From NCBI RefSeq assembly GCF_009914755.1, contig NC_060926.1: a DNA stretch of 64,000 bases; one strand, written 5' to 3'. Below the pieces are notes generated by a model that saw nothing but the letters and a program-made list of their open reading frames with translations, was not told the origin of the DNA and did not search any database. Both the position numbers and the translations under genes were made by a program. The DNA is from the human T2T-CHM13v2.0 reference genome, Homo sapiens. Numbering within the stretch: the stretch's first letter is position 1; every line of letters starts with the position of its first letter. This document shows positions 31,510 through 34,782 of the stretch, piece after piece.

Positions 31510-32245
31510 AATTCATTACTAGTGGGAATATAAAATGGTACAACCACTCTGGAGAAGAGTCTGGGCATTTCCTAAAGCCCTAGATAAATACATAACCATT
31601 ATACCACCCAGCAACTGCAGTTTGGGGTTTATCCTGGAGAAATGAAAACCTAGGTTTGTAGAAAAACCTGCCCAGGAATGCTCGTAACAATGTGATGTGT
31701 AATAGCCCCAAAGTGGAAACAACCCTACAGTCCTTTCAACAGGTGATTGGTTAAACCGACTATGGTACATCCATACCATTGAATAGTACTCAGCAATAAA
31801 AAGGGAACAAAGTATTGACACCTTGGTACCACTGGAAACTCACTTCCTAGTACAGAAAACAGGTGGTCAGGGTTTACAAAGTAAACACACTGAACGAATT
31901 TGCAGAGGACAATGCTGCAGGGGGAAAAAGCCAGTCCCCTAAGCTTACATATTACGCCATTCCATTTAAATAGAATTCTTGAAATGGCAACATTCTGTAA
32001 GTGGGGAACAGCTTAGTGGTTGCCAGGCATCAGGGCAATGGAGAGGGAAGAAGGTGGTTGGCACTGGAAGGACAATGGGAGGCATCCTTGTGCAGAGGAA
32101 AGGGTCTGTATGTTGAGTGCGCCGAGGTACTACAGCTGTCCAAGATGCCACCGGTGGGGGAAATAGGTAAAGGGTACACTGCGATCTTTGTATTATTTGT
32201 TATAAGTGCAGGTGAATCCTCCGTGAGCTGGTAAAAAAGATTTTA
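31510..32245 (+). mobile_element. Old L1M 3' end/UTR fragment
   Basis: 'aaaatggtacaaccactctggag', 'tatggtacatccataccattgaatagtactcagcaataaaaagg', 'ttagtggttgccagg'. Confidence 0.8.
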
Positions 32246-32267
32246 ACTAAAATAGAGTTGAACCCTC

Positions 32268-32347
32268 CAGCACAGACTGACCTGAGTATTCTATCAGTAC
32301 AGGTTGACCTGAGTATTCTGCCAACAGACTGACCTAGCAGGTCAGTC
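32268..32347 (+). repeat. 27-bp tandem repeat (about 2.6 units) ending in a perfect inverted repeat
   Basis: cagcacagactgacctgagtattctat / cagtacaggttgacctgagtattctgc / caacagactgacct-agc-aggtcagtc. Confidence 0.85.
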
Positions 32348-32419
32348 CCCAGGCCGGGCTCTACCCCTGGGAATGGCACCCCTCCTCCAGAGGAAGCATT
32401 TCCCAAATGCCCCAGGATA

Positions 32420-34330
32420 GGAGTTGGCGCGGAAGGAGAGCCAAGCCGGCGATGAAGACATTCTCCGCTGGACACAGGAACGCCAAGAGCCAACGCTAAG
32501 AAGCGGCCTCCACACTGGACGGCGGCCTCCATTAGCCAGCTGCTGCTGGTAAAACAAAGAGAAGGCCGTGGGCAGGCGGCGCTGAGTGCAGACTAAACGC
32601 AGTCCGCGGCGGCGGTACCTGAAAGCCAGCACAGATCCACCCAAATGGAGCCCTCGCCTCCCCACAGCTAGCGGGGCGCTCCCGCGGGGGTTCCGCGCCT
32701 CCCCTCCGCCAGGTGGAGCCAGTACTCGCAAGGGGGCGTCCGCGGTTCAGAGGTCACATACCGGCTGAAGTAAACCGCGCTCAGGCGGCCTTCAGGGGCG
32801 CGACCCCAGCGTCTTTCCTCGGCCCAAGCCCCGGCGCCGAGCAGAGACGACCTTAGCGGTCCTACACCTAGCGGTCCTGCAGGTCCCTGAATCCTCTTTG
32901 GATCAGCGCTGAGGAAAGGCGGGAGTGCGGCCGCGCGCCCTGCCTCCGCCGCCATGGCCCAGCTGCGAGCCTGCGAAGTCCGGCAGCTGCTGCACAACAA
33001 GTTCGTGGTGGTCATGGGGGACTCGGTCCAGCTGGCCGTGTACAAGGACCTGGTGCTCCTGCTTCAGAAGGACTGCCTGCTGTCCTCCAGTCAGCTGAAG
33101 GCCAAGGGCGAACTGAGCTTCGAGCGCGACATGCTGCTGGTGGGCTGCAGCAGTGGCCGCATGCACTACGACCGCCACTACCGCGAGGTGCGCCAGTTCC
33201 GCTCGGGCCACCACCTGGTGCGCTTCTACTTCCTCACGCGCGTGTATTCGCACTACGCGGAGCGCGTCGTGGAGGAGCTGCGTAGGGCCGAGCCCGCCCC
33301 GGACGTGGTGGTCATGAACTCCTGCCTCTGGGACCTCGCCAGGGATGGCCGGGGCTTCCCCAGGAGCTACCGGCGTGACGTGGAGAGCCTGTTCGTGCGG
33401 TTGGACTGGGCGCTGCCCACGTCCTGCCTTCTGTTGTGGAACACGGCCATGCCCGTGGCCGAGACCATCTCGGGAAGCTGCCTCCCATGCGCGCGCCAGC
33501 TCCGCCGCGCCCGCCTGCGCGAAGACGTGATGGAGGCCAACTTCTACAGCTCCGCCGAGGCGGCGAGGCGCGGCTTTGACGTGCTGGACCTGCATTTCCA
33601 CTTCCGCCACGCCACGCGGCACCGGCTCCCCGACGGCGTGCACTGGGACGAGCGCGCGCACCGCCACCTTTCCCAGCTGCTGCTGGCCCACCTGGCAGAC
33701 GCCTGGGGCGTGGACCTGCCCCGCCGCGAAGCCGTGGACGGGTGGCTCAGGCATGACCACGCCAACAGACGTGCAGCCCCGGCGGGCAGAAGGCAGCCCC
33801 GAGACGACCGACCGGACCCACACGGCCGAGGGGACCGAGCGGGCCGAGGAGACCTCCGTGCCCCTCGATCGCTCGCTTCGTTCTTCTGGGCTCGACCGCC
33901 TTTCCCTCCCCGCCGTCAGGTCGCCTTTCTGTCCTCTGACCGGCATTTCTCCAGCGACTCCTCCACGCGCCACATCCGACACAGCGGCGAAGAAAACGCC
34001 AGGGTTGGCCGCGAGTCGCGGCCGTTCCCCATCCGCACAAGCTCTGCTCTGCGCCGAGAGAGGAGGCATTCCCCTTACCTTCCGTGGCGCCCCAGCGAGC
34101 CACCCCTAAGCCAGCGAAGCCGCACACGCACACACAGAGGGGTCCCGAGAACACCCAGGACTCAGTAGTAGCCAGACCTGGGAGAACGTCCTGTCTTCCC
34201 CAGCATGGTCAATGGGCTGCCTGACCACTATCACACGGGCCTGGCCTTCAGCAGCTCTTCCGAGGTGGGGGTATTTTTACGCTTCCTACTCCAATCAGTG
34301 AACCGCTTTCCACATCACTCGTCTTTGCCA
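32420..34330. promoter_or_regulatory. CpG island covering the putative promoter/5' UTR and the whole PCED1-like ORF
   Basis: Abrupt switch to very GC- and CpG-rich sequence (e.g. gcggccgcgcgccc) in an otherwise AT-rich, CpG-depleted window. Confidence 0.9.
32954..34168 (+). CDS. Intronless PC-esterase domain-containing protein 1 family member (PCED1B-like/FAM113; possibly the PCED1CP locus), 404 aa
   Basis: Translation contains EVRQLLHNKFVVVMGDS, VYKDLVLLLQKD, HHLVRFYFLTRVYS, NSCLWD, FDVLDLHFHFRHA, DGVHW and ADAWGV, all recognisable PCED1A/B motifs. Kozak context gccgccATGG; double stop TAGTAG; no frame disruptions. Confidence 0.88.
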   Translation: MAQLRACEVRQLLHNKFVVVMGDSVQLAVYKDLVLLLQKDCLLSSSQLKAKGELSFERDMLLVGCSSGRMHYDRHYREVRQFRSGHHLVRFYFLTRVYSHYAERVVEELRRAEPAPDVVVMNSCLWDLARDGRGFPRSYRRDVESLFVRLDWALPTSCLLLWNTAMPVAETISGSCLPCARQLRRARLREDVMEANFYSSAEAARRGFDVLDLHFHFRHATRHRLPDGVHWDERAHRHLSQLLLAHLADAWGVDLPRREAVDGWLRHDHANRRAAPAGRRQPRDDRPDPHGRGDRAGRGDLRAPRSLASFFWARPPFPPRRQVAFLSSDRHFSSDSSTRHIRHSGEENARVGRESRPFPIRTSSALRRERRHSPYLPWRPSEPPLSQRSRTRTHRGVPRTPRTQ

Positions 34331-34418
34331 GAGCTTCCACGCCACTTTTTGGGAAGGGAGCAGGGACCCAGACCACCAGGCCGTTCTCCTCTAAGCATTT
34401 AGGGAGAAATGAAGTCTA

Positions 34419-34464
34419 CATAAAAGTGCTCCCCGCCTTAAAAAAAAAAAAAAAAAAAAAAAAA
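34419..34464 (+). terminator. Variant poly(A) signal CATAAA plus genomic poly(A) tract
   Basis: CATAAA at 34419-34424, then 25 A at 34440-34464, about 270 bp after the stop codon. Confidence 0.6.
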
Positions 34465-34782
34465 GCAGCCATACCCGAATGTAAGTCTTCAGGCAGTATT
34501 TTCCATTGACATTATTCCAAAAAAAGGTAAAAATTTTGATCCTTAGAACTTAAACGTTTCAATTAAGATTTCCATTTCACCGTTCGTTTTTGAGTATGTT
34601 CATAGAACCTGATATCTAAAGCTTTCACCTAAGTTGTCTTACATATTCTTTACATTTCTCTGTGCTTCAACATAGCATTTGTCCTAAAAAAATTCCATTC
34701 ACTAATGCAAGGTTGTTTATTTTCTGTTAGAAACATAATCTTTAAAGTTCATCGAATGCCTAGCACATTTTTAAAAATAGAC

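What the first reader, a model, noticed from the sequence alone, without database searches (positions are those of the whole stretch)
32954..34168. Intact, intronless third PCED1-family ORF: candidate functional retrogene rather than a dead pseudogene
Seen: 404 uninterrupted codons, perfect Kozak gccgccATGG, TAGTAG stop, and codons strongly biased to G/C endings. Established: PC-esterase/SGNH proteins use a GDS serine and a DxxH pair, both retained here (S24 at 33023-33025; D227-G-V-H230 at 33632-33643). From recall, the protein differs at many positions from both human PCED1A and PCED1B. Even so, the low-complexity tail keeps PCED1B-like motifs in frame (FLSSDRHFSSD vs FSSDHTFQSD; SPYLPW vs GPYTPW). 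Inference: this much divergence without a stop or frameshift suggests long purifying selection, so this may be a real uncharacterised esterase/acyltransferase gene. Human annotation lists a 'PCED1CP' pseudogene that may be this locus; I cannot confirm that.
Basis: partly seen in the sequence, partly recalled or inferred. Interest (0 to 1): 0.85.

Follow-up and report, generated by a model that had tools for sequence, protein, structure and literature searches.

The report
Intact third PCED1 esterase gene copy
The stretch annotated as the human pseudogene PCED1CP carries an unbroken reading frame for an esterase-like protein that many placental mammals share and that still looks protected by selection in apes and Old World monkeys, so it may be a working gene wrongly labelled as dead.

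Summary
Window 32954-34168 (+) is an unbroken 404-codon ORF with gccgccATGG, a TAGTAG end and the GDS serine and DGVH motifs.

It is neither PCED1B (chr12) nor PCED1A (chr20). It is the human member of a separate third clade, here called PCED1C (support 100/100). That clade has ~400-aa models in primates, rodents, lagomorphs, bats, moles, camel, hippo and afrotherians, and it sits beside eutherian PCED1B.

The catalytic domain (aa 1-262) is constrained:
- Human versus Cercocebus shows 9 differences, against ~34 expected if neutral.
- None of the 9 falls in the 138 family-conserved columns.
- The disordered tail changes at about the neutral rate.

The ORF lies in a 1.8-kb CpG island (CpG o/e 0.92) within AT-rich DNA. 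The model has an SGNH/PC-esterase fold.

Against function: early anthropoids replaced 9 conserved residues, including R27L, and I saw no direct evidence that the ORF is transcribed or translated. A retrogene origin is not shown, because PCED1B's coding sequence is also a single exon.

Verdict: probably a conserved gene mislabelled as a pseudogene (about 0.6).

The parts
32400..34200 (.). CpG island covering about 550 bp upstream and the whole ORF
   Evidence: 200-nt windows from 32400 to 34199 have G+C 0.60-0.74 and CpG o/e 0.65-1.24. The ORF has G+C 0.68 and o/e 0.92; the whole window has 0.388 and 0.21. EPIC-array probes at this locus are annotated 'Island' (supplement of PMC11447267).
32400..32953 (+). 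GC-rich 5' flank, putative CpG-island promoter and 5' UTR (inferred, no transcript evidence seen)
   Evidence: The 500 nt upstream of the ATG have G+C 0.67 and CpG o/e 0.87. The stretch is unique in the genome. Only the last 45 nt (from 32909) still align with the PCED1B exon.
32954..34168 (+). Intact 404-codon ORF (PCED1C-type protein), stop included
   Evidence: It is 99% identical to a 404-aa Pan model, 93% to a 405-aa Cercocebus model and 76-77% to two 422-aa New World monkey models.
32954..33739 (+). Catalytic SGNH/PC-esterase-type domain, residues 1-262
   Evidence: The AF2 model shows alternating strands and helices over residues 6-251. VIA-align gives Z 15.7 to SGNH hydrolase 4h08 and Z 15.6 to XOAT1 6cci_A. 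Foldseek finds 61 PDB matches at E<=0.001, mostly GDSL/acetyl esterases. All 77 columns invariant in 51 family members are kept.
33023..33025 (+). Codon of Ser24 (GDS motif), predicted nucleophile
   Evidence: G22, D23 and S24 are invariant in 51 of 51 aligned A/B/C proteins. The role of the GDS serine is taken from PMC2824669 (passages).
33317..33319 (+). Codon of Asn122 (M-N-S-C-L-W-D after strand 3), likely oxyanion-hole residue (inferred)
   Evidence: N122, S123, C124 and D127 are invariant, and W126 is at least 90% conserved. Strand E118-122 is seen in the model.
33632..33643 (+). Codons of D227-G-V-H230 (DxxH block), predicted acid and base of the triad
   Evidence: D227, G228, H230 and W231 are invariant. 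A family profile aligns this block to the DGVH block of GDSL esterase 8gr2, though at E 0.96, which is not significant.
33740..34165 (+). Disordered, arginine-rich C-terminal tail, residues 263-404
   Evidence: pLDDT is below 50 for residues 259-404. The tail has 33 R in 142 residues and net charge +20. There is no codon-position G+C asymmetry. Amino-acid change is near the neutral rate, yet the frame is kept in most clade members.
34055..34078 (+). Residues 368-375, an R-x(2-5)-P-Y motif shared by PCED1A, B and C (PY-NLS-like; function inferred)
   Evidence: The pattern lies in the last 90 residues of 52 of 68 C rows, 41 of 48 B rows and 6 of 6 A rows. It appears in 11.5% of shuffled human tails.
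34169..34439 (+). 3' flank, possible 3' UTR, with CATAAA at 34419-34424
   Evidence: Read. G+C 0.55, CpG o/e 0.45. Unique in the genome. No homology to the PCED1B locus.
34440..34465 (+). Uninterrupted run of 26 A, 15 nt after CATAAA
   Evidence: Read. It fits either a retrocopy poly(A) relic or a mononucleotide microsatellite. No flanking direct repeat was found.

Best explanation
Window 32954-34168 is the human orthologue of an unnamed third PCED1 gene, here called PCED1C.

Origin (inferred from trees and a rough dS): PCED1C arose by duplication of PCED1B at or shortly before the base of placental mammals. It has been kept as a ~400-residue single-exon ORF in many orders.

Protein (shown by fold and motifs; activity inferred):
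- The first ~260 residues form an SGNH/PC-esterase-type alpha/beta domain. It has the Ser24 / Asp227 / His230 triad and Asn122.
- This predicts a serine esterase or acyl (O-acetyl) transferase. It has no signal peptide, so it would act inside the cell.
- The last ~140 residues are a disordered, strongly basic tail. The tail keeps an R-x(2-5)-PY motif that may be a nuclear import signal (inferred).

Expression (inferred): the ORF sits in its own CpG island, which implies low germ-line methylation and probably promoter activity.

History in primates:
- The protein changed quickly in early anthropoids, including nine substitutions at family-conserved positions.
- In crown catarrhines, including the human-chimpanzee pair, the domain has again been under purifying selection.

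The human copy is therefore more likely a live, weakly studied protein-coding gene mislabelled as a pseudogene than a dead relic.
For: Orthology and age:
- The own genome holds only three loci of this family: this one, chr12 PCED1B (59% identity over aa 2-274) and chr20 PCED1A (exon-wise, 54-57%).
- A search listing 120 of 626 hits gives named ~400-aa models, mostly labelled 'PCED1B-like'. They come from primates, colugo, tree shrew, rabbit and pika, many rodents, many bats, moles, camel, hippo, manatee, elephants and aardvark.
- In FastTree (122 rows) these form a 68-row clade with the human ORF.
- In the careful IQ-TREE (48 rows) the 17 C rows are one clade at 100/100. C plus eutherian B has 100/99. 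Inside C, Afrotheria splits from Boreoeutheria.
- Human B versus C domain: NG86 dS 0.605, dN 0.257; 41 of 90 shared fourfold sites differ. Synonymous sites are therefore not fully saturated.

Constraint:
- Domain identity of human C is 261/262 to Pan, 253/262 to Cercocebus and 227/262 to Callithrix. Tail identity is 137/142, 122/142 and 92/142.
- The accepted gene PCED1B is less conserved in its domain (human versus Colobus 244/263).
- Neutral simulation on the human DNA used recalled divergences of 0.012, 0.065 and 0.115. It expects 6.7, 34.4 and 59.2 domain differences against 1, 9 and 35 observed. For the tail it expects 3.6, 18.8 and 32.0 against 5, 20 and 50 observed. Fisher tests of domain versus tail give p = 0.022, 1.6e-4 and 7.5e-7.
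- By substitutions alone, the ORF stays open in 8% of human-to-Old World monkey simulations and 1.2% of human-to-New World monkey simulations.
- The 9 human-Cercocebus domain differences hit 0 of the 138 columns that are at least 90% conserved in the rest of the family (binomial P 0.0012).
- All 77 invariant columns are kept in human.

Fold. Matches include Z 15.6 over 203 residues to XOAT1, a plant PC-esterase-type acetyltransferase. The model has a helix at residues 6-13 before the first strand, as PMC2824669 describes for PC-esterases.

CpG island.

Locus activity:
- EPIC probes in the island vary in methylation with sex and with ART conception (PMC8143227 passage; PMC11447267 passage and supplement).
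- A GENCODE lncRNA name, AC079610.1, is attached to a probe 470 bp from the PCED1CP probe.
Against: No direct expression evidence: I saw no RNA, CAGE, ribosome or peptide data. RefSeq and HGNC call the locus a pseudogene.

No codon-level dN/dS: no orthologous DNA was available. All rate tests therefore rest on predicted proteins, one representative per 90% cluster, and gene predictors can hide frame defects. They also rest on primate divergences recalled from memory.

Signs of relaxed constraint in anthropoids:
- Anthropoid C proteins depart from 9-12 of 138 family-conserved columns, where most other rows depart from 0-5. The human changes are R27L, G65C, N72Y, L106V, S129A, Y131D, L143V, V161L and F176C.
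- On the catarrhine stem 4 of 8 changes hit conserved columns, and on the New World monkey stem 3 of 7 do. That is the proportion expected without constraint.
- The anthropoid stem is long: 0.28 against 0.15 for the whole Microcebus tip.

The tail behaves neutrally in primates. One Macaca fascicularis model switches to the other open frame after residue 263.

Weak family matches for the human protein:
- It matches no Pfam model at E<=0.01. The best is Lipase_GDSL at E 0.12, 13 bits against a cut-off of 23.6.
- The AF2 model is only middling: mean pLDDT 58.8, with domain blocks ranging 37-92.

Possible dispensability: no named C-type protein appeared from carnivores, perissodactyls, ruminants, xenarthrans, shrews or marsupials. 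The gene may be dispensable in several lineages.
Confidence: 0.6

Rival explanations
1. A unitary pseudogene at an early stage. PCED1C was a working gene in the eutherian ancestor and still is in many orders. It lost its function in anthropoids or catarrhines, and the human frame is open only because the sequence is GC-rich and too little time has passed.
For: - The RefSeq/HGNC label is pseudogene (hub annotation).
- Human departs from 9 of 138 conserved columns, including R27L three residues after the nucleophile.
- On the catarrhine stem 4 of 8 changes hit conserved columns, and on the New World monkey stem 3 of 7 do.
- The tail changes at the neutral rate.
- GC-rich DNA keeps frames open by chance: a 388-aa antisense ORF and a second open + frame in the tail.
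- A macaque model is frameshifted after residue 263.
- No paper treats the locus as a gene.
Against: - A dead gene cannot slow down again. Human versus Cercocebus shows 9 domain differences against ~34 expected, while the adjacent tail shows 20 against ~19.
- Those 9 differences avoid all 138 conserved columns (P 0.0012).
- Human versus Pan shows 1 domain difference against 5 in the tail.
- By substitutions alone the frame would survive in 8% (Old World monkey) and 1.2% (New World monkey) of simulations. Yet human, Pan, Cercocebus, Callithrix and Plecturocebus models are all full length.
- CpG o/e of 0.92 has not decayed.
Confidence: 0.25
2. The conserved thing in human is not the protein. It is the CpG island as a regulatory or non-coding RNA element, for example the promoter of the lncRNA AC079610.1, and the ORF is a passenger.
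For: - The island is strong and isolated in a gene desert.
- A lncRNA name is attached to a probe inside it. That lncRNA is listed in a bladder-specific co-expression network (PMC6745163 passage).
- Methylation of the island varies with sex and with ART conception.
Against: - DNA-level constraint would not spare exactly the amino-acid columns that are conserved across PCED1A, B and C (0 of 9 differences).
- It would not leave the tail half of the same island free to change.
- It would not keep a 0.71/0.42/0.93 G+C pattern over codon positions.
- It does not explain full-length models in more than 40 named species.
Confidence: 0.1
3. A recent processed retrocopy (dead-on-arrival pseudogene) of PCED1B or PCED1A, as the words 'retrogene' and 'pseudogene' suggest.
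For: - The ORF is intronless and lies on a different chromosome from both paralogues.
- CATAAA is followed after 15 nt by 26 A.
Against: - Identity to PCED1B is only 73% at nucleotide level and 61% at amino-acid level in the domain.
- Orthologues exist in Afrotheria and Boreoeutheria, and their tree follows the species tree.
- The PCED1B coding sequence is itself one exon, so missing introns say nothing.
- No target-site duplication was found.
- The flanks match nothing else in the genome.
- An ancient retroposition from PCED1B remains possible. It is compatible with the best explanation and is not counted here.
Confidence: 0.02

Closest known systems
Human PCED1B (FAM113B), chr12, here locus L002
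   Same: - Same domain, with identical GDS, N-S-C-L-W-D and D-G-V-H-W blocks.
- Single-exon coding sequence.
- Disordered C-terminal tail with S-S-D and R-x(2-5)-P-Y motifs in the same order.
- Nearest clade in the trees.
   Different: - 61% identity in the domain and 24% in the tail.
- Different chromosome.
- The C tail is arginine-rich rather than proline-rich.
- The C ORF is a full CpG island (o/e 0.92, against 0.58 for the PCED1B ORF).
- The C clade has a long stem of 0.32.
Human PCED1A (FAM113A), chr20
   Same: Same domain and a C-terminal PY motif. Domain identity of human C to goat PCED1A is 64%.
   Different: - The PCED1A coding sequence is split over several exons.
- It has an N-terminal extension.
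- It forms the outgroup to B plus C.
PC-esterase family as defined by Anantharaman and Aravind 2010 (PMC2824669), e.g. plant TBL/XOAT1
   Same: - GDS serine and DxxH triad.
- An extra helix before strand 1.
- SGNH-like fold. XOAT1 (6cci_A) matches at Z 15.6, rmsd 3.3, 203 residues aligned.
   Different: - No signal peptide, transmembrane segment or terminal cysteine pair was examined or seen.
- An Asn is kept after strand 3, as in classical SGNH enzymes.
- None of the 51 PCED1 family members scanned matches the Pfam PC-Esterase model.
- According to the paper, FAM113 proteins are the link between PC-esterases and classical SGNH enzymes.
Bacterial and fungal SGNH/GDSL acetyl esterases and O-acetyltransferases (Axe2, PatB, OatA C-terminal domain, sialate O-acetylesterase)
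   Same: Same fold, with Z 12.8-15.7 over 150-190 residues and Foldseek E down to 6e-6. 14 of 51 family members match Pfam Lipase_GDSL.
   Different: - Sequence identity is only 8-20%.
- The human protein itself does not reach Pfam significance.
- There is an insert at residues 54-74 of low confidence.
- There is a long disordered tail.

Membership tests
PCED1 (FAM113) family of animal PC-esterase-domain proteins | Significant full-domain sequence similarity to PCED1A and PCED1B | tested here: met
   E 4.5e-100 to the chr12 PCED1B locus and 3e-27 to PCED1A exons. BLASTP E 3e-109 to PCED1B.
PCED1 (FAM113) family of animal PC-esterase-domain proteins | All family-invariant residues kept | tested here: met
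   All 77 invariant columns of a 51-sequence A/B/C alignment are present in human. However, 9 of 138 nearly invariant columns are changed.
PCED1B orthologue | Groups with PCED1B of other species and lies at the PCED1B locus | tested here: not met
   PCED1B is a separate intact 432-aa ORF on chr12. The window ORF falls in a different clade with 100/100 support.
PC-esterase family (PMC2824669) | Catalytic Ser in an N-terminal GDS motif | tested here: met
   G22-D23-S24 is invariant. The definition is taken from passages of PMC2824669.
PC-esterase family (PMC2824669) | Asp and His in a DxxH block before the last helix | tested here: met
   D227 and H230 are invariant. They lie just before helix 233-251 of the model.
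PC-esterase family (PMC2824669) | Extra N-terminal helix 0 before strand 1 | tested here: met
   The model has helix 6-13 and then strand 17-22. The alignment to XOAT1 starts at model residue 1.
PC-esterase family (PMC2824669) | Match to the Pfam PC-Esterase model | tested here: not met
   The human ORF has no such hit at E<=1. None of 51 family members has one at E<=0.01. The paper itself says most members escape database profiles.
Classical SGNH/GDSL hydrolase superfamily | SGNH alpha/beta fold | tested here: met
   VIA-align Z 15.7 (rmsd 2.9, 175 residues aligned) to 4h08, with 248 chains at Z>=8. Foldseek gives 61 matches at E<=0.001. The model is of middling confidence.
Classical SGNH/GDSL hydrolase superfamily | Conserved Gly after strand 2 and a GxND block after strand 3 | tested here: inconclusive
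   An invariant Asn122 follows strand 118-122, but in M-N-S-C rather than GxND. The block II Gly could not be placed without coordinates.
Classical SGNH/GDSL hydrolase superfamily | Esterase or acyltransferase activity | not testable with these tools
   This needs an enzyme assay of the recombinant domain and a Ser24 mutant.
Processed retrogene | Loss of parental introns, poly(A) relic, target-site duplications, spliced parental UTR | tested here: inconclusive
   - No introns, but the parental coding sequence has none either.
- CATAAA plus A26 is present.
- No flanking direct repeat was found.
- Homology to PCED1B stops 45 nt upstream of the ATG, before the presumed splice acceptor.
Pseudogene (as annotated) | A disabling lesion: premature stop, frameshift, lost start or lost catalytic residue | tested here: not met
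   None is present.
Expressed protein-coding gene | Sense transcript and translation | not testable with these tools
   No expression data were available. The literature gives only methylation reports.

The most novel reading that the evidence does not exclude
PCED1C is a genuine, unnamed third PCED1 gene of placental mammals that is still translated in humans. It would encode an intracellular, possibly nuclear, serine O-acetyl/acyl esterase driven by a germ-line-type CpG-island promoter. It would have undergone an adaptive shift in early anthropoids: 25 domain substitutions on the stem, mostly off the conserved core, followed by renewed constraint. 'PCED1CP' would then be a missing human protein-coding gene.
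Probability: 0.45. Interest if true: 0.65.

Novelty: new member of a known kind. Interest (0 to 1): 0.5.

Why it matters
Few conserved enzyme-like ORFs of 400 codons remain outside the human protein-coding gene set. If PCED1CP is translated, the human catalogue gains a third member of a family whose substrates are unknown. Variant interpretation, proteomics databases and methylation studies that already hit this CpG island would need to treat it as a gene.

The case also shows a general annotation trap. A single-exon paralogue of a gene whose own coding sequence is a single exon gets labelled a processed pseudogene by default.

The rate pattern bears on how duplicated enzymes change role. It shows a burst in early anthropoids, then a slow-down, with a freely evolving disordered tail.

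Tried and rejected
1. Ohnologue idea. From recall, ERBB4-IKZF2 on 2q34 mirror ERBB3-IKZF4 on 12q13, so PCED1C and PCED1B might date from the vertebrate genome duplications. I rejected this because C branches next to eutherian B, inside the mammalian A/B/C group (100/99). Synonymous sites are also not fully saturated (41 of 90 fourfold sites differ).

2. Retrocopy hallmarks. The direct-repeat search of 32300-34700 gave 17 short families, none flanking the unit. blastn of 32000-34700 against the PCED1B locus aligned only 32909-33749 (73.1%), apart from five A/T-run hits to the A26 tract and four short hits (13-24 nt, E 0.03-0.37). Genome searches with the 5' flank and the 3' flank found only themselves. 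The origin stays open.

3. Sequence match to solved structures. The single protein gave only a spurious PPR hit (E 0.045). The family profile gave one hit at E 0.96. Only fold comparison worked.

4. Tail-only search for more clade members. It returned 9 proteins, adding a peccary fragment and two baleen-whale models. It was too insensitive for a census.

5. Profile search for a full census. Only the best 120 of 772 hits are listed. Ten new rows are named PCED1B by their sources and I did not place them in a tree. No C-type row from carnivores, perissodactyls, ruminants, xenarthrans, shrews or marsupials was seen. That could mean loss, or annotation as a pseudogene as in human, so I draw no conclusion.

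6. Literature. 'PCED1CP' and 'PCED1C' each found the same 2 papers. 'PC-esterase domain-containing protein 1B-like' found 0. 'AC079610.1' found 2 and 'LINC01878' found 2. None discusses the ORF. The two held supplement files of PMC8143227 did not contain the name.

7. The store of earlier findings was not open.
Full report
**1. What is in the sequence.**

Window 32954-34168 (+) is an unbroken ATG-to-TAG frame of 404 codons. The start context is gccgccATGG, and the stop TAG is followed at once by a second TAG. Codon 24 (33023-33025) is the Ser of G-D-S, and codons 227-230 (33632-33643) read D-G-V-H. These positions are invariant in an alignment of 51 PCED1A, B and C proteins.

Third-position G+C is 0.84 overall. 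It is 0.93 in codons 1-262, where the three codon positions give 0.71/0.42/0.93. It is only 0.69 in the tail, where they give 0.68/0.68/0.69.

An open frame alone proves little in this DNA. The opposite strand carries a 388-aa ORF (32903..34069), and the tail is open in a second + frame (33753..34109).

**2. Identity of the locus.**

The hub annotation places the window on chr2 and names 32963..33727 PCED1CP. The window's own genome has just three loci of this family:
- this one;
- chr12, with 59% identity over residues 2-274 and E 4.5e-100;
- chr20, with three exon-sized pieces at 54-57%.

The chr12 locus is PCED1B, and its entire 432-aa coding sequence lies in one ORF. The chr20 locus (PCED1A) is split into exons. 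So the ORF is neither PCED1A nor PCED1B. The lack of introns is shared with its nearest paralogue and does not by itself indicate retroposition.

The annotated pseudogene span covers only the part that aligns well with PCED1B. No disabling lesion exists anywhere in the frame.

**3. Relatives in other species.**

A protein search found 626 hits at E<=0.001, of which the best 120 are listed. The top rows are models of about 400 residues, mostly named 'PC-esterase domain-containing protein 1B-like':

| Species or group | Identity to the human ORF |
|---|---|
| Pan (404 aa) | 99% |
| Cercocebus (405 aa) | 93% |
| Plecturocebus and Callithrix (422 aa) | 77% and 76% |
| lemurs | ~65% |

Further rows come from colugo, tree shrew, rabbit, pika, many rodents (Rattus 58%), many bats, three moles, camel, hippo, manatee, elephants and aardvark.

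In a FastTree of all 120 plus human C and human B, 68 rows including the window ORF form one clade (98*). The 48 PCED1B and 6 PCED1A rows lie on the other side.

I added unnamed 50%-identity representatives from a library-wide search, which gave 738 hits at E<=0.001. With these, the mammalian A/B/C group holds together, and C sits beside eutherian B.

The careful IQ-TREE of 48 rows gives:
- C (17 rows) at 100/100;
- C plus eutherian B at 100/99;
- A as their outgroup at 98/84.

C emerges from an unresolved node with xenarthran, afrotherian and boreoeutherian B. Inside C, Afrotheria splits from Boreoeutheria, as in the species tree.

Between human B and C, the domain has NG86 dS 0.605 and dN 0.257, and 41 of 90 shared fourfold sites differ. 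Given the strong C/G bias at third positions, this is high but not saturated.

I infer a duplication of PCED1B in the mammalian stem, no later than the eutherian ancestor. The C stem is long (0.32) while B has almost none. That asymmetry is typical of a relocated copy that changed role. I give this as inference only.

**4. Is it constrained?**

No orthologous DNA could be fetched, so dN/dS proper was not computed. I used three protein-level tests.

(a) Matched comparisons.

| Comparison | Domain identity | Tail identity |
|---|---|---|
| Human C vs Pan | 261/262 | 137/142 |
| Human C vs Cercocebus | 253/262 | 122/142 |
| Human C vs Callithrix | 227/262 | 92/142 |
| Human C vs Microcebus | 199/262 | 59/132 |

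The accepted gene PCED1B is no better conserved in its domain: human versus Colobus is 244/263, and human versus Microcebus is 198/261. Outside anthropoids, C is more conserved than B. Microcebus versus camel C is 83.6% identical, whereas Microcebus versus Bos B is 74.3%.

(b) Neutral simulation on the human DNA. I used divergences recalled from memory: 0.012 for chimpanzee, 0.065 for Old World monkeys and 0.115 for New World monkeys.

| Comparison | Domain differences, expected / observed | Tail differences, expected / observed | Fisher p, domain vs tail |
|---|---|---|---|
| Chimpanzee | 6.7 / 1 | 3.6 / 5 | 0.022 |
| Old World monkey | 34.4 / 9 | 18.8 / 20 | 1.6e-4 |
| New World monkey | 59.2 / 35 | 32.0 / 50 | 7.5e-7 |

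The adjacent tail serves as an internal neutral yardstick. By substitutions alone, the frame and start codon survive in 62%, 8% and 1.2% of simulations. Indels, which were not simulated, would lower this further.

(c) Placement of changes. Of 262 domain columns, 138 are at least 90% conserved in the 46 non-anthropoid A/B/C sequences. The 9 human-Cercocebus differences hit none of them (binomial P 0.0012).

Together these tests indicate purifying selection on the protein's domain within crown catarrhines. The pattern follows the protein's own conservation profile, which a purely DNA-level constraint would not explain.

**5. Evidence pointing the other way.**

Anthropoid C proteins depart from 9-12 of the 138 conserved columns, whereas most other rows depart from 0-5. 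Exceptions are Saccopteryx with 9, manatee with 8 and Ctenodactylus with 7. In human the changes are R27L, G65C, N72Y, L106V, S129A, Y131D, L143V, V161L and F176C.

By parsimony:
- the anthropoid stem carries 25 domain changes, 4 of them in conserved columns;
- the catarrhine stem carries 8, with 4 in conserved columns;
- the New World monkey stem carries 7, with 3 in conserved columns.

The last two proportions are what no constraint would give. The anthropoid stem is 0.28 long against 0.15 for the whole Microcebus tip.

So early anthropoids went through relaxed or redirected selection. R27L, three residues after the nucleophile, could impair catalysis.

The tail changes at about the neutral rate. 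One Macaca fascicularis database model follows the usual frame to residue 263 and then reads the other open frame. I cannot tell whether that is a real indel or an assembly error.

No paper treats the locus as a gene. 'PCED1CP' and 'PCED1C' occur in two papers, both as array annotations. The phrase 'PC-esterase domain-containing protein 1B-like' occurs in none.

**6. The protein.**

AlphaFold2, given the 51-sequence alignment, produced a model with mean pLDDT 58.8. Residues 6-251 form alternating strands and helices, with 10-residue block means between 37 and 92. Residues 54-74 and 259-404 fall below 50. The tail is predicted to be disordered.

Foldseek against the PDB gives 61 matches at E<=0.001. 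They are led by GDSL esterases, acetyl-xylan esterases and peptidoglycan O-acetyltransferase PatB.

VIA-align re-scoring gives the following:
- Z 15.7 to the SGNH hydrolase 4h08 (rmsd 2.9, 175 residues);
- Z 15.6 to XOAT1, a plant PC-esterase-type xylan O-acetyltransferase (rmsd 3.3, 203 residues, model residues 1-250);
- 248 chains at Z>=8.

According to passages of PMC2824669, the PC-esterase family shares the GDS serine and the Asp/His of DxxH with SGNH enzymes and has an extra N-terminal helix. FAM113 proteins link the two groups. The model has that helix (residues 6-13), and the motifs are invariant.

Pfam does not recognise the human protein. The best match is Lipase_GDSL at E 0.12. Among the 51 family members, 14 match Lipase_GDSL, 12 match Lipase_GDSL_2, and none matches the PC-Esterase model.

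I infer a serine esterase or acyl-transferase with a Ser24/Asp227/His230 triad. The substrate is unknown.

The tail has 33 Arg in 142 residues and net charge +20. It keeps an R-x(2-5)-P-Y motif at residues 368-375. The same motif lies in the last 90 residues of 52 of 68 C rows, 41 of 48 B rows and 6 of 6 A rows, against 11.5% of shuffled human tails. A PY motif in a basic, disordered region matches the PY-type nuclear import signal as I recall it. That reading is untested.

**7. Surroundings.**

The ORF and about 550 bp upstream form a sharp CpG island at 32400-34200. The ORF has G+C 0.68 and CpG o/e 0.92, while the window has G+C 0.388 and o/e 0.21. A sequence methylated in the germ line would have lost its CpGs. 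The island therefore implies long-term germ-line hypomethylation, as at CpG-island promoters (inference).

Two Illumina EPIC probes annotated 'Island' lie here. One is labelled PCED1CP and the other, 470 bp away, is labelled AC079610.1. [quoted passage not shown]

A 1365-bp sex-associated differentially methylated region in lung carries the same gene label (PMC8143227, passage). AC079610.1 is listed as a lncRNA in a bladder-specific network (PMC6745163, passage).

These reports show that the island is epigenetically variable and that some transcript is annotated in it. They do not show that the ORF is expressed.

Downstream, CATAAA (34419-34424) is followed 15 nt later by 26 uninterrupted A (34440-34465). 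That would fit a retrocopy's polyadenylation signal and tail. However, no target-site duplication was found. Homology with the PCED1B locus is limited to 32909-33749 at 73.1%. Both flanks are unique in the genome. An ancient retroposition from PCED1B is plausible for a single-exon copy on another chromosome, but it is unproven.

**8. Distribution.**

A profile of 32 C-clade proteins ranks C-type rows first and PCED1B rows from about 575 bits down (best 120 of 772 listed). A tail-only search added a peccary fragment and two baleen-whale models.

No named C-type protein came from carnivores, perissodactyls, ruminants, xenarthrans, shrews or marsupials. Only their PCED1B appeared. Because the human copy itself is absent from protein sets owing to its pseudogene label, absence from these lists cannot be read as loss.

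**9. Verdict.**

The locus is the human orthologue of an old, unnamed third PCED1 gene.

The catalytic domain shows protein-level purifying selection in crown catarrhines after a burst of change in early anthropoids. The tail is free to vary but mostly keeps its frame.

I put about 0.6 on a live protein-coding gene mislabelled as a pseudogene, 0.25 on a recently relaxed unitary pseudogene, and about 0.1 on a non-coding role of the island.

It is a new member of a known family rather than a new kind of thing. Its interest is moderate, and it would rise sharply with a single unique peptide or a codon-level selection test.

Noticed in passing
window 32903-34069 (-) and 33753-34109 (+): There is a 388-aa ORF antisense to the gene and a 118-aa ORF in a second sense frame of the tail. 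Both look like by-products of G+C-rich DNA. The second sense frame is the one read by a Macaca fascicularis database model after residue 263 (77.8% identity by tblastn).
   Followed up: partly
window 34055-34078 (residues 368-375) and the matching position in PCED1A/B proteins: An R-x(2-5)-P-Y motif followed by a basic cluster is conserved near the C-terminus of all three paralogues (52/68 C, 41/48 B, 6/6 A rows). It resembles a PY-type nuclear import signal (recalled consensus) and suggests a nuclear role for the whole family.
   Followed up: partly
window 34419-34465: CATAAA is followed after 15 nt by a pure run of 26 A. That is too pure for a poly(A) relic more than 100 million years old unless it is maintained as a microsatellite. 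No target-site duplication was found.
   Followed up: partly
window ~32400-34200 (hg19 chr2:213,696,794-213,698,158 in PMC8143227): The CpG island is reported as differentially methylated by sex in lung and by ART conception in cord blood. It appears in lists that also hold germ-line genes (PIWIL1, RBM46, PRDM9). A probe 470 bp from the PCED1CP probe is labelled with the lncRNA AC079610.1.
   Followed up: partly
proteins P0003, P0004 (New World monkeys), aligned to human residues ~290-297: An in-frame insertion of about 17 codons, with repeats of a G-R-G-D-R-A-like unit, lies in the tail of both New World monkey models. The matching human DNA also shows an imperfect 18-nt direct repeat (33799-33816 and 33826-33843).
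   Followed up: no
proteins P0063/P0071 (Elephas) and P0066/P0098 (Loxodonta): Each elephant has two C-type models on one contig. All are shorter than 400 aa (323-380) and lack the C-terminal PY motif. This may be a lineage-specific duplication with truncation.
   Followed up: no
chr2 window versus chr12 (L002): From recall, the neighbours ERBB4 and IKZF2 on 2q34 have paralogues ERBB3 and IKZF4 on 12q13, the arm that carries PCED1B. The trees and dS argue that PCED1C is much younger than that paralogy, so this looks like coincidence.
   Followed up: partly
L002:1420-1497: Upstream of the PCED1B start codon, a pyrimidine tract ending in AG about 59 nt before the ATG looks like the splice acceptor of the coding exon. 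Homology with the PCED1CP locus ends about 18 nt short of it, so the test for a spliced parental UTR could not be made.
   Followed up: partly
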